A stretch of DNA of 64,000 bases from Corallococcus sp. AB038B (GCF_003668955.1 NZ_RAWO01000002.1:279605-343604), one strand, 5' to 3'; shown: positions 35,768 to 36,346, counted from the stretch's first letter. The notes: a model not told the origin generated them from the letters alone. Numbers and translations: made by a program.

Positions 35768-36346
35768 TCAGCCCACGTTCACCATGCCGCCCTTGATTTC
35801 CGCCATGCCGTCCGCCTTGAGCGCCAGCTGCGCCTTGGCGGTCACCTTCACCTGCGGCCCCTCCAGGGCGATGTCCTTCTTGCCCGCCGCCTTGACGGAC
35901 GGGGCATTCAGGGAGAGCTCTCCGCTCTTGGCCTCCAGCTGGACGTCGGCGCCCTCCACGCTGAACAGCTTCGCGGCCTTCATCGTCACGGCCTTGTCCG
36001 AGGAGAGAGTCGCGTCCTTGGTCGCCGTCTGCGTCAGCTCGTCCTTCGTGGTGACCGTGAAGGCCTTGGCGCTCTCCAGCGCGAACGTGTCGTCGCTCTT
36101 CCACGACGAAGCCTTCGTGGACGTCACCTCGATGGTCTCCGCCTTCAGCACGAAGGACTTGCAGGTCACCGTGACGCTGTCCTGCTTCTGCACGATGGTG
36201 CTGGTGGCGCTGTCACCCTTCACCTCCAGGGTGATGGACTCACCGTCCATCTTCACCGTCTGGAGGATCTTCCCGTCCTTGTCCTCCGTGGTGAGGGTGA
36301 GGCCCTTCTCCTTGTCCATGTCGATGATGCAGATGAGCTTGGGCAT
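35768..36346 (-). CDS. Lys/Thr-rich beta-helical protein resembling a detached VgrG/gp5 C-terminal needle
   Basis: Repetitive short beta-strand units (SITLEVKG, VTVTCKS, TIEVTS, DIALEGPQVKVTAKAQLALKADGMAEIKGGMVNVG). No signal peptide. Composition is atypical for this genome. Confidence 0.4.
   Translation of the reverse strand: MPKLICIIDMDKEKGLTLTTEDKDGKILQTVKMDGESITLEVKGDSATSTIVQKQDSVTVTCKSFVLKAETIEVTSTKASSWKSDDTFALESAKAFTVTTKDELTQTATKDATLSSDKAVTMKAAKLFSVEGADVQLEAKSGELSLNAPSVKAAGKKDIALEGPQVKVTAKAQLALKADGMAEIKGGMVNVG

What the first reader, a model, noticed from the sequence alone, without database searches (positions are those of the whole stretch)
35768..36346. Possible split VgrG spike: a short VgrG on one operon and a detached beta-helix needle gene on the other
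The vgrG at 43789..45420 is 543 aa. It has gp27-like and OB-fold regions but stops where the gp5-type beta-helix normally begins. On the divergent operon, between tssK and tssL, sits a 192-aa K/T/S-rich protein made of short repetitive beta-strand units ending in ..EIKGGMVNVG. This resembles VgrG C-terminal needle repeats. The two lengths sum to about 735 aa, which is typical of VgrG. A two-piece spike would be unusual and could allow needle or effector swapping.
Basis: inference. Interest (0 to 1): 0.6.

Follow-up and report, generated by a model that had tools for sequence, protein, structure and literature searches.

The report
Two-gene type VI secretion spike
The 192-residue protein is very probably the detached needle of a two-piece type VI secretion spike whose base is the 543-residue protein encoded 8 kb away; this design is already known from Francisella, but here it sits in a myxobacterium, in a large, apparently undescribed family of Francisella-like systems.

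Summary
The ORF is real: 35768..36346 (-), 192 aa, GC3 0.95, packed between tssK and tssL. The split-spike reading is supported.

- **Fusion proteins.** In some relatives one 739-793-aa protein carries both parts in order. In P0048, residues 27-571 match the 543-aa protein (E 2e-71) and residues 585-766 match the 192-aa protein (E 3e-33).
- **Gene order.** Across 87 related loci the needle gene lies directly after the hub gene in 53, is fused in 4, and is elsewhere in the locus in 20. The window's dispersed layout is shared by one Myxococcaceae/Archangiaceae clade.
- **Same solved complex.** The hub profile hits only Francisella PdpA in the PDB, and its AlphaFold model matches PdpA best (E 2.7e-26). 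The needle profile hits spike needles, including Francisella VgrG over nearly its full length (E 5.6e-5).
- **Fold.** The needle model is all-beta and beta-helical.

The cluster also carries IglI-family, IglE-like and IglG-like genes and an IglB-like sheath, alongside canonical TssB/C/K. It looks like a relative of the Francisella T6SSii, spread through Myxococcota and Desulfobacterota. A two-piece spike is therefore a known design, not an oddity. Needle swapping finds no support: the needle co-varies with the hub as other core genes do. No complex was modelled or measured.

The parts
35768..36346 (-). Needle subunit of the spike: a short VgrG of the Francisella type, 192 aa, all-beta and beta-helical
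43789..45420 (+). Hub subunit of the spike: gp27-like plus OB-like base, PdpA-like, 543 aa, lacking the needle
   Evidence: Translation. It matches residues 27-571 of fusion protein P0048 (E 2e-71). The family profile's only PDB hit is Francisella PdpA 6u9e_A, E 5e-4. The AF2 model's best Foldseek hits are PdpA 6u9f/e/g (E about 3e-26, TM 0.62-0.63), ahead of VgrGs at E 1e-16 to 1e-20. No Pfam or NCBIfam hit.
47093..47479 (-). DUF4280 PAAR-like protein (IglG-like), 128 aa; inferred cap of the needle tip
   Evidence: Pfam DUF4280 E 2e-34, above cutoff. NCBIfam T6SS_IglG E 3.5e-12, below cutoff. Start codon placed from the translation. Found in many, not all, of the related loci. The role as cap is inferred.
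36374..37627 (-). TssK baseplate gene, directly upstream of the needle gene in the same operon
   Evidence: Pfam T6SS_VasE E 1e-36. NCBIfam TIGR03353, 318.7 bits against a cutoff of 100.
35118..35756 (-). DotU/TssL membrane-complex gene, 11 nt downstream of the needle gene
   Evidence: Pfam DotU E 1.7e-16. Start placed.
31102..34803 (-). TssM/IcmF membrane-complex gene, in the same operon
   Evidence: Pfam IcmF_helical and IcmF_C. NCBIfam TssM E 8.5e-17, below cutoff.
30590..31105 (-). IglE-like outer-membrane lipoprotein (Francisella-type counterpart of TssJ)
   Evidence: Pfam IglE_N, 104.9 bits against a cutoff of 26. NCBIfam T6SS_IglE E 5.8e-10, below cutoff.
37742..40065 (+). TssB and TssC sheath genes, at the start of the divergent operon that carries the hub
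   Evidence: Pfam VipA, VipB and VipB_2. NCBIfam models pass their cutoffs. The best PDB match of TssC is Francisella IglB 3j9o_B at 424 bits, against 358 for VipB and 344 for another solved TssC (5urw).
41462..42433 (+). IglI-family protein (a component of the Francisella pathogenicity island)
   Evidence: NCBIfam NF041244 IglI_fam, 231.7 bits against a cutoff of 100, E 1.6e-68.
43400..43792 (+). TssE (gp25-like); its stop overlaps the hub start. The 5' limit is approximate.
   Evidence: Pfam GPW_gp25 E 1e-7. NCBIfam TssE E 1.6e-8. ATGA overlap.
45424..47091 (+). TssF baseplate gene, starting 3 nt after the hub stop. In most relatives the needle gene sits between hub and TssF.
   Evidence: Pfam T6SS_TssF E 4e-21. 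Junction sequence. Gene orders in 87 loci.

Best explanation
The 192-aa protein is the needle half of a two-piece T6SS central spike.

**Proposed mechanism.**
1. Three copies of the 543-aa hub form the base. The hub has a gp27-like head, an OB-like domain and four short neck strands, and it adapts the threefold spike to the sixfold Hcp tube and the TssE/F/G/K baseplate.
2. Three copies of the 192-aa protein form a beta-helical needle. Their conserved N-terminal strands (..LICxIExDKxKG..ITQT..) continue the hub's neck non-covalently, at the point where fused relatives have a peptide bond.
3. The conserved blunt C-terminal end (..LKGxxxxVG) is capped by the DUF4280/IglG-like PAAR protein.
4. Sheath contraction then expels tube plus spike.

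The split site lies after the OB domain. That is the same place as in Francisella PdpA + VgrG, and different from T4 gp27 | gp5.

**Shown here:** both genes are real and conserved. They are homologous to the two halves of single fused proteins. They are neighbours in most relatives. Each matches one chain of the solved Francisella spike.

**Inferred:** the physical hub-needle complex, the trimeric intertwined needle, the PAAR cap, and secretion.
For: **Fusions.**
- P0048 (774 aa) residues 27-571 match the hub at E 2e-71, and residues 585-766 match needle residues 8-191 at E 3e-33. P0046 matches the needle at E 4e-22.
- 10 of 188 hub-family proteins carry a C-terminal needle-HMM match.
- Single ORFs holding both HMMs occur in L001, L002, L003 and L081.

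**Synteny.**
- In 53 of 87 loci the order is hub, needle, TssF. The gap from hub stop to needle ATG is 4-284 nt, median 31.
- Nine loci share the window's dispersed layout.

**Needle homology.**
- Profile A3 hits T6SS VgrG 8gra residues 500-612 (E 1e-7), the Anabaena contractile-injection spike All3320 (E 9e-6), and Francisella VgrG 6u9e_B residues 38-185 of 189 (E 5.6e-5).
- The only NCBIfam hit is the Francisella-type TssI model.

**Hub homology.** The only PDB profile hit is PdpA. Foldseek gives PdpA E 2.7e-26 and TM 0.62, above every VgrG.

**Operon packing and co-inheritance.** Intergenic gaps of 27 and 11 nt. Distance correlation with the hub r = 0.89.

**Precedent.** (VgrG-PdpA)3 is the established Francisella spike (PMC10653695, PMC5924787).
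Against: - No hub-needle complex was modelled or measured here. Only monomers could be predicted.
- Foldseek of the needle monomer against the PDB gave no significant hit. Francisella VgrG ranked third at E 0.15.
- The AF2 monomer folds as a single-chain solenoid, not the intertwined trimer expected.
- All curated sequence thresholds fail: DUF2345 26.2 bits against 30.7, and T6SS_TssI_Fran 21.6 bits against 100.
- The PdpA sequence match covers only about 107 residues at E 5e-4.
- In the window the two genes lie on opposite strands about 7.4 kb apart, so co-expression is assumed, not shown.
- Ten related loci show no needle gene within view.
Confidence: 0.87

Rival explanations
1. The 192-aa protein forms a spike on its own, as a self-sufficient short VgrG. 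The 543-aa protein is a separate baseplate hub or cargo-holding protein that does not stack end to end with it.
For: The two genes sit in different operons in the window. Francisella VgrG was first viewed as a stand-alone short spike (PMC5924787). No interface was computed here.
Against: The fusion proteins join the two parts head to tail with only a short linker. In most loci the needle gene lies directly after the hub gene. In the solved Francisella homolog the two chains form one complex (PDB 6U9E). A threefold needle needs a hub to connect to a sixfold tube; this rests on established knowledge of contractile injection systems.
Confidence: 0.05
2. The pair is a broken gene. A formerly single VgrG-like gene was disrupted and rearranged, and the 192-aa ORF is a decaying remnant.
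For: Fused versions exist, so a fission event is conceivable. The needle gene is displaced from its usual place between hub and TssF.
Against: Stand-alone needle genes with their own ATG are conserved across Myxococcia, a Polyangia-annotated MAG clade, several Desulfobacterota families and a Psychromonas MAG. GC3 is 0.95. The needle diverges at about the same rate as the hub and TssK (mean p-distance 0.49 against 0.53 and 0.48). The window arrangement is shared by nine loci forming one clade. The gene is tightly packed between tssK and tssL.
Confidence: 0.02
3. The 192-aa protein is a beta-solenoid with some other role, such as a periplasmic or surface adhesin-like protein or a membrane-complex accessory. 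It would merely be co-located with tssK/tssL.
Against: It has no signal-peptide-like N-terminus (MPKLICIIDMDKEKG..). Its specific profile hits are all spike needles of contractile injection systems. The fusion to the hub and the fixed position next to the hub in 53 loci also argue against it.
Confidence: 0.04

Closest known systems
Francisella T6SSii central spike: PdpA (820 aa) + VgrG (164 aa), PDB 6U9E/6U9F/6U9G
   Same: - It is a two-gene spike split after the OB-like domain into a hub (gp27-like plus OB-like) and a needle-only short VgrG.
- The window hub's only PDB sequence-profile hit and its best fold match are PdpA.
- The needle profile matches Francisella VgrG over nearly its whole length, and its only NCBIfam hit is the Francisella TssI model.
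- The clusters share an IglI-family gene, an IglE-like lipoprotein, an IglG-like DUF4280 cap and an IglB-like sheath.
   Different: - The hub is about 280 aa shorter. PdpA has about 200 extra residues before the matched segment, and the hub model starts directly with beta strands. I infer that nothing corresponds to PdpA's alpha-helical lid.
- Sequence similarity is far below the curated equivalog cutoffs.
- The cluster keeps TssB, TssC and TssK that pass the canonical models, and TssE and TssF that are still recognised by them below cutoff. Reviews describe the Francisella baseplate proteins as hard to recognise by sequence.
- The hosts are free-living Myxococcota and Desulfobacterota.
- Fused and adjacent forms coexist within this family.
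Canonical T6SSi/iii VgrG (TssI), e.g. P. aeruginosa VgrG1 (4MTK/4UHV) and 8GRA
   Same: The overall fold is the same: gp27-like head, OB domain and beta-helical needle. The hub model matches VgrG chains at E 1e-16 to 1e-20. The needle profile matches the VgrG C-terminal needle (8gra 500-612, E 1e-7).
   Different: Canonical VgrG is one polypeptide; here there are two genes. No Phage_GPD, Phage_base_V or T6SS_Vgr Pfam model and no NCBIfam VgrG model hits the hub. The needle reaches DUF2345 only below threshold.
Phage two-piece spikes: T4 gp27 + gp5 (+ gp5.4), Mu gp44 + gp45
   Same: The hub and the needle are separate gene products that assemble into one trimeric spike capped by a PAAR-like tip. 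The hub model matches Mu-type gp44-like hubs (3cdd, 3d37) at E 1e-12 to 1e-14. The first needle profile weakly matches the T4 gp5 beta-helix (4jiw, E 0.07).
   Different: In T4 and Mu the cut lies before the OB domain, so the OB fold travels with the needle protein. Here the OB-like domain stays with the hub. There is no lysozyme domain.

Membership tests
Francisella-type T6SS tip protein TssI/VgrG (NCBIfam NF041249 T6SS_TssI_Fran) | Score at or above the curated equivalog cutoff (100 bits) | tested here: not met
   21.6 bits, E 1.7e-4, aligned 7-142 of the protein to 7-137 of 163 model positions. It is the only NCBIfam hit.
Francisella-type T6SS tip protein TssI/VgrG | Short needle-only protein (about 160-200 aa) lacking gp27-like and OB domains, homologous to the solved VgrG chain of 6U9E | tested here: met
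   192 aa and all-beta. Family profile A3 matches 6u9e_B at E 5.6e-5, profile positions 14-164 to chain residues 38-185 of 189.
Francisella-type T6SS tip protein TssI/VgrG | Forms a (PdpA-VgrG)3 complex | not testable with these tools
   Only monomer predictions were possible. Indirect support comes from the natural fusions and gene adjacency.
Pfam DUF2345 (PF10106, VgrG C-terminal needle region) | Score at or above the gathering threshold (30.7 bits) | tested here: not met
   26.2 bits, E 8e-6, residues 76-187. 6 of 26 family members hit it at E <= 0.01, best E 1.2e-6; the window member scores below threshold.
Canonical VgrG/TssI (Pfam Phage_GPD + Phage_base_V + T6SS_Vgr; NCBIfam VgrG models) | Sequence match of the gp27-like and OB regions to the family models | tested here: not met
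   No Pfam family at E <= 0.01 for the 543-aa protein. None of these models hit any of 42 family members at E <= 0.1. No NCBIfam hit.
Canonical VgrG/TssI | gp27-like head plus OB fold at the structural level | tested here: met
   The AF2 model (pLDDT 85.8) matches VgrG1 4mtk at E 7e-18, 8gra at E 5e-19, and Afp8 and Pvc8-type spikes at E 1e-18 to 3e-20, over about 550-590 alignment columns.
Canonical VgrG/TssI | Head, OB domain and needle in a single polypeptide | tested here: not met
   The hub ORF ends at TAG 45418-45420, 3 nt before the tssF start. The needle is a separate ORF on the other strand.
PdpA (Francisella T6SSii hub) | Sequence and fold similarity to PdpA greater than to any other solved protein | tested here: met
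   PdpA 6u9e_A is the only PDB hit of the hub profile (E 5e-4, profile positions 111-217 to chain residues 314-423). It gives the top three Foldseek hits, E 2.7e-26 to 4.1e-26, TM 0.62-0.63.
PdpA (Francisella T6SSii hub) | Alpha-helical lid and a length of about 820 aa | tested here: inconclusive
   The hub is 543 aa. The model starts with beta strands at residue 3 and has only short helices. PdpA has about 200 extra residues before the matched segment. The primary structure paper could not be read, so the lid could not be mapped residue by residue.
T6SSii (Francisella pathogenicity island type) system | FPI-specific components present: IglI, IglE, IglG-like PAAR, and an IglB-like sheath | tested here: met
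   IglI_fam scores 231.7 bits against a cutoff of 100. Pfam IglE_N scores 104.9 bits against 26. DUF4280 is above cutoff, and the IglG model gives E 3.5e-12 below cutoff. The best PDB hit of TssC is IglB, 424 bits against 358 or less for the others.
T6SSii (Francisella pathogenicity island type) system | Baseplate proteins too diverged to be found by canonical TssE/F/G/K models; found only in Francisella (PMC12955703) | tested here: not met
   TssK scores 318.7 bits against a cutoff of 100. TssB and TssC also pass the canonical TIGRFAM cutoffs. TssE and TssF are recognisable. The hosts are Myxococcota and Desulfobacterota. I treat the system as a relative of T6SSii, not a member.

The most novel reading that the evidence does not exclude
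The window belongs to a large, so far unnamed T6SS lineage. The hub family has at least 460 clusters at 50% identity, in Myxococcia, Polyangia, several Desulfobacterota families and a Psychromonas MAG.

On this reading the lineage is the closest free-living relative of the Francisella T6SSii. It would bridge T6SSii to canonical T6SSi: Francisella-type spike, IglI, IglE and IglG, together with canonical TssB/C/K and recognisable TssE/F.

The lineage preserves fused, adjacent-split and dispersed forms of one spike. That would show that PdpA + VgrG is a VgrG-like protein cut after the OB domain, and it would make the origin of the Francisella system testable. Recent papers still describe T6SSii as exclusive to Francisella (PMC12955703), or as Francisella plus Dongshaea (PMC13098142).
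Probability: 0.5. Interest if true: 0.65.

Novelty: new variant of a known kind. Interest (0 to 1): 0.5.

Why it matters
- **Independent evidence on the Francisella spike.** The natural fusions give comparative evidence that the odd Francisella pair, PdpA plus a tiny VgrG, is one VgrG-like spike cut after the OB domain.
- **Tractable hosts.** The same design occurs in culturable, non-pathogenic, genetically tractable myxobacteria, where hub-needle assembly could be studied without select-agent constraints.
- **Classification.** T6SSii-type parts (PdpA-like hub, short VgrG, IglI, IglE, IglG-like cap) are not confined to Francisella. They occur in a broad 'deltaproteobacterial' T6SS lineage that still has a canonical-looking sheath and baseplate. 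This bears on how the FPI system arose and on how T6SS subtypes are detected. Tools keyed on canonical VgrG models will report these clusters as lacking a spike.
- **Annotation.** The 543-aa and 192-aa 'hypothetical proteins' can be named as spike hub and spike needle.

Tried and rejected
**Searches that gave nothing useful**
- Single-sequence phmmer of the needle against the PDB gave only immunoglobulin/TCR noise (E >= 0.08). The hub gave nothing. Family profiles were needed.
- The afdb50 library was unavailable. A like-for-like comparison with AlphaFold monomer models of short VgrGs could therefore not be made.
- The primary structure paper on PdpA-VgrG (PMC6939872) is not held. Details of the PdpA-VgrG interface and the lid come only from reviews.
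- The 216-aa putative tube protein (40098..40748) has no PDB, Pfam or NCBIfam sequence match. Its identity as an Hcp/IglC analogue rests on position only.
- Literature searches for an FPI-like T6SS in Myxococcota, Corallococcus or Deltaproteobacteria found nothing relevant. This is absence in the held library, not proof that it is undescribed.

**Ideas considered and rejected**
- A sequence-level repeat array in the needle: none in the DNA, and only weak in the protein.
- ORFs 47626..49914 (+) and 37964..38521 (-) as genes: no family hit for either. The first lies antisense to the AMP-binding gene and the second overlaps tssB on the opposite strand. Neither passes the GC3 filter.
- Needle swapping between clusters: the distance-matrix correlation gives no sign of it.
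- The neighbouring eCIS-like locus as the needle's partner: rejected because the needle stays with T6SS genes in all the other related loci where it was found, within the 10-kb flanks examined.

Full report
**1. The observation**

The ORF is as described: 35768..36346 on the minus strand, ATG start, 192 aa, ending ..EIKGGMVNVG. The window is 69% G+C and full of spurious long ORFs. This one has the coding signature of real genes here, with GC3 0.95 and GC2 0.43.

It is packed into an operon:
- 27 nt downstream of TssK (36374..37627; Pfam T6SS_VasE E 1e-36; NCBIfam TssK 318.7 bits);
- 11 nt upstream of DotU/TssL (35118..35756);
- followed by a small ORF, TssM (31102..34803) and an IglE-like lipoprotein (30590..31105).

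The protein has 26 Lys, 22 Thr, 22 Ala and 16 Ser, and no Arg, His or Tyr. It has no tandem repeat in the DNA and only weak internal protein repetition. Its hydrophobicity alternates with period 2; 13 of 2000 shuffles reach the observed value. The AlphaFold2 model is all-beta at mean pLDDT 87. So 'repetitive beta-strand units' is true as structure, not as sequence repeats.

The 543-aa ORF at 43789..45420 (+) is also real. Its ATG overlaps the TssE stop, and its TAG lies 3 nt before the TssF ATG.

**2. The 543-aa protein is a spike hub without a needle**

It matches no Pfam or NCBIfam model, and neither do its 41 homologs. Calling it 'vgrG' is therefore not justified by sequence.

A profile of the family (alignment A2, 42 sequences) has a single hit in the whole PDB: Francisella PdpA (6u9e_A, E 5e-4).

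The AlphaFold2 model (pLDDT 85.8, pTM 0.81) matches PdpA best by Foldseek:
- PdpA 6u9f/6u9e/6u9g: E 2.7e-26 to 4.1e-26, TM 0.62-0.63;
- spike proteins of extracellular injection systems and T6SS VgrGs: E 1e-16 to 3e-20;
- Mu-type gp44-like hubs: E 1e-12 to 1e-14, covering only the first ~385 alignment columns.

The protein thus has the gp27-like head and the OB-like domain. It ends after four short strands (residues ~500-540).

**3. The 192-aa protein is the missing needle**

Four independent lines point the same way.

*(a) Fusion proteins.* Three of the 41 hub homologs are 761-774 aa. Their extra C-terminal ~200 residues are homologous to the 192-aa protein.
- P0048 residues 27-571 match the hub (E 2e-71), and residues 585-766 match needle residues 8-191 (36% identity, E 3e-33).
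- P0046 matches the needle at E 4e-22.
- Among 188 hub-family proteins in hand, 10 carry a C-terminal needle-HMM match.
- 543 + 192 = 735 aa, against 739-793 aa for most fusions.

*(b) Gene order.* I scanned one genome per species for the hub. I then mapped the hub, the needle and six core T6SS genes in six-frame ORFs of 87 loci.

| Arrangement | Loci |
|---|---|
| Needle directly after hub (TssK-TssE-hub-needle-TssF-DotU) | 53 |
| Fused into one ORF | 4 |
| Needle elsewhere in the locus | 20 |
| Needle not seen | 10 |

- In the adjacent class the gap from hub stop to needle ATG is 4-284 nt, median 31.
- The 20 'elsewhere' loci break down as follows. Nine have exactly the window's layout (TssM-DotU-needle-TssK on one strand; TssC..TssE-hub-TssF on the other). 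Four have 1.4-7 kb inserted between hub and needle. Seven are extra hub paralogs lying beside a second cluster.
- Of the 10 'not seen' loci, one is truncated. Nine are Sorangium, Chondromyces or other Polyangia-type loci where the sheath, TssF and DotU genes are also outside the 10-kb view.

*(c) Homology to solved needles.* A profile of 26 diverse needle proteins (A3) hits:
- the C-terminal needle of a T6SS VgrG (8gra_I residues 500-612, E 1e-7);
- the Anabaena injection-system spike All3320 (E 9e-6);
- Francisella VgrG (6u9e_B, E 5.6e-5), over profile positions 14-164 and chain residues 38-185 of 189.

The protein's only NCBIfam hit is the Francisella-type TssI model (E 1.7e-4). Its best Pfam hit is DUF2345 (E 8e-6). 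Both are below the curated cutoffs.

**4. How it most likely works**

By homology with (PdpA-VgrG)3 of Francisella (PMC10653695, PMC5924787), the proposed assembly has these steps:
1. Three hubs form the base on the tube and baseplate.
2. Three needle chains form a beta-helix. Their strongly conserved N-terminal strands continue the hub's C-terminal neck, exactly where the fusions have a peptide bond.
3. The conserved C-terminal ..LKGxxxxVG end is capped by the DUF4280/IglG-like PAAR protein. That protein is encoded at 47093..47479 (-), next to an AMP-binding-enzyme gene.

The cut lies after the OB domain, as in Francisella. In T4 (gp27 | gp5) and Mu it lies before it.

The complex, the trimer and the cap are inferred; none was computed or measured. 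I put 0.87 on this explanation.

Three rivals were considered: a stand-alone spike, a broken gene, and an unrelated solenoid. All are weak. The reasons are the fusions, the wide conservation of stand-alone needle genes with their own starts, and the fact that only spike needles appear among the specific profile hits.

**5. Evolution and 'swapping'**

In a rough neighbour-joining tree of the hubs:
- the adjacent two-gene form occurs in all major clades;
- fusions appear in at least two places;
- the window's dispersed form is one clade (Corallococcus, Myxococcus hansupus, Archangium, Vitiosangium).

The adjacent split is therefore probably ancestral for the family, and the window's layout is a later relocation. 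The needle stayed with tssK-tssL, while the tssE-hub and tssF genes joined the sheath operon.

Pairwise distances of needle and hub correlate at r = 0.89 over 37 loci. Other core gene pairs give 0.71-0.98, and the divergence rates are similar.

Modularity may lie elsewhere. A C. coralloides genome (strain KYC2213) carrying a cluster like the window's (94% identical hub, L007) also has a second cluster of this family. An extra hub paralog with a C-terminal extension that looks helical lies beside it (L065).

**6. Comparison with what is known**

A two-piece T6SS spike is established for Francisella T6SSii, and two-piece spikes are common in phages. The finding is therefore not new in kind.

What differs from Francisella:
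- The hub is about 280 aa shorter than PdpA. I infer that it has no counterpart of PdpA's helical lid.
- Both proteins fall far below the curated Francisella family cutoffs.
- The cluster is a mosaic:
  - Francisella-type parts are the IglI family (231.7 bits against a cutoff of 100), IglE_N (104.9 against 26), the IglG-like DUF4280 protein, and a TssC closest to IglB (424 bits against 358 for VipB).
  - Canonical parts are TssB, TssC and TssK, which pass the canonical models, and TssE and TssF, which are recognisable.

The hub family is large: 460 clusters at 50% identity with E <= 1e-3. It spans Myxococcia, Polyangia, Desulfobacterota (Syntrophus, Smithella, Desulfobacteraceae, Desulfobotulus) and one Psychromonas MAG.

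Recent papers still call T6SSii exclusive to Francisella (PMC12955703), or report it only in Francisella and Dongshaea, nested within T6SSi in TssC trees (PMC13098142). I found no paper describing this lineage. That is not proof that none exists. The NCBIfam IglI_fam model already accepts the window's non-Francisella protein above its cutoff.

**7. Verdict**

- Observation: confirmed.
- Interpretation: supported, with two corrections. The design is known, and swapping is not supported.
- Novelty: a new variant of a known kind.
- Interest: 0.5 overall. The split spike itself is ordinary once Francisella is recalled. The family-level picture would interest T6SS specialists: a broad Francisella-like lineage outside Francisella, with natural fusions that explain PdpA + VgrG.

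Noticed in passing
window 35768..36346 (-); needle genes in L004-L086: The needle proteins are almost free of arginine: 0-1 Arg in most, against 13-32 Lys, even in genomes of about 70% G+C where Arg normally far outnumbers Lys. The needle parts of the fused proteins have 4-7 Arg. I have no explanation.
   Followed up: partly
window 55462..62264 (+): A second contractile injection locus lies about 5 kb beyond the T6SS cluster. It has a phage-type sheath (55462..57876), a gp19-like tube (58464..58955), a CIS_tube protein (59916..60788) and a weak Phage_GPD hub (60990..62264). 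It looks like an eCIS or tailocin-type element.
   Followed up: partly
proteins P0069, P0095, P0141 (about 640 aa) and P0106, P0120, P0142 (about 1350 aa); loci L063, L065, L067, L070, L074, L075, L083: About a quarter of hub-family proteins carry, in place of a needle, a C-terminal extension of about 108 aa, or about 820 aa, that is A/S/K/E/T-rich. It looks alpha-helical or coiled-coil and does not match the needle HMM. In Corallococcus, Archangium and Hyalangium these are extra hub genes lying beside a second T6SS cluster. Whether they bind the same needle or form a different kind of tip is unknown.
   Followed up: partly
window 41462..42433 (+), 30590..31105 (-), 47093..47479 (-), 38548..40065 (+): The cluster carries Francisella-island markers: an IglI family protein above the NCBIfam cutoff, IglE_N above the Pfam cutoff, an IglG-like DUF4280 protein, and a TssC closest to IglB. 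Recent papers call T6SSii exclusive to Francisella (PMC12955703). No ClpV-like ATPase was seen among the genes scanned between 30.5 and 50.2 kb.
   Followed up: partly
window 24722..30580 (-): A 1952-aa protein built of HYDIN/ASH/Cep192-type Ig-like repeats is encoded immediately downstream of the IglE-like lipoprotein gene, on the same strand. It could be a surface protein or a cargo linked to the T6SS.
   Followed up: no
window 47479..50198 (-): An AMP-binding-enzyme gene (47479..49161) sits directly upstream of the DUF4280 gene, a pairing also seen in L004, L005 and L006. Next to it is a 346-aa protein with a weak match (E 1e-5, far below cutoff) to the myxobacterial outer-membrane-exchange protein TraB. 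This may be a cargo or adaptor module for the spike tip.
   Followed up: no
L017-L024, L030 (Sorangium, Chondromyces, Polyangiaceae): In these loci the order is TssK-TssM-IglE-AMP-binding-DUF4280-..-TssE-hub, and unrelated genes follow the hub. No needle, sheath, TssF or DotU lies within 10 kb. The rest of the system, and presumably the needle, must be elsewhere in the genome.
   Followed up: partly
L016 8734..9801; L014 14203..14904: Two loci have 2.8-7.3 kb inserted between the hub and needle genes. In both, the region upstream of the needle core repeats the ..ITQT..TSTITQK.. unit, and the L016 stop-to-stop needle ORF spans 356 codons. This suggests needles lengthened by internal duplication.
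   Followed up: no
window 40098..40748 (+), 40807..41544 (-) and 42447..43391 (+): The 216-aa ORF after tssC sits where a tube protein (Hcp/IglC) is expected, but it matches nothing in Pfam, NCBIfam or the PDB by sequence. The 245-aa minus-strand ORF matches nothing in Pfam or NCBIfam, and the 314-aa ORF has no hit either. In L005 the corresponding gene has a weak TssG hit.
   Followed up: partly
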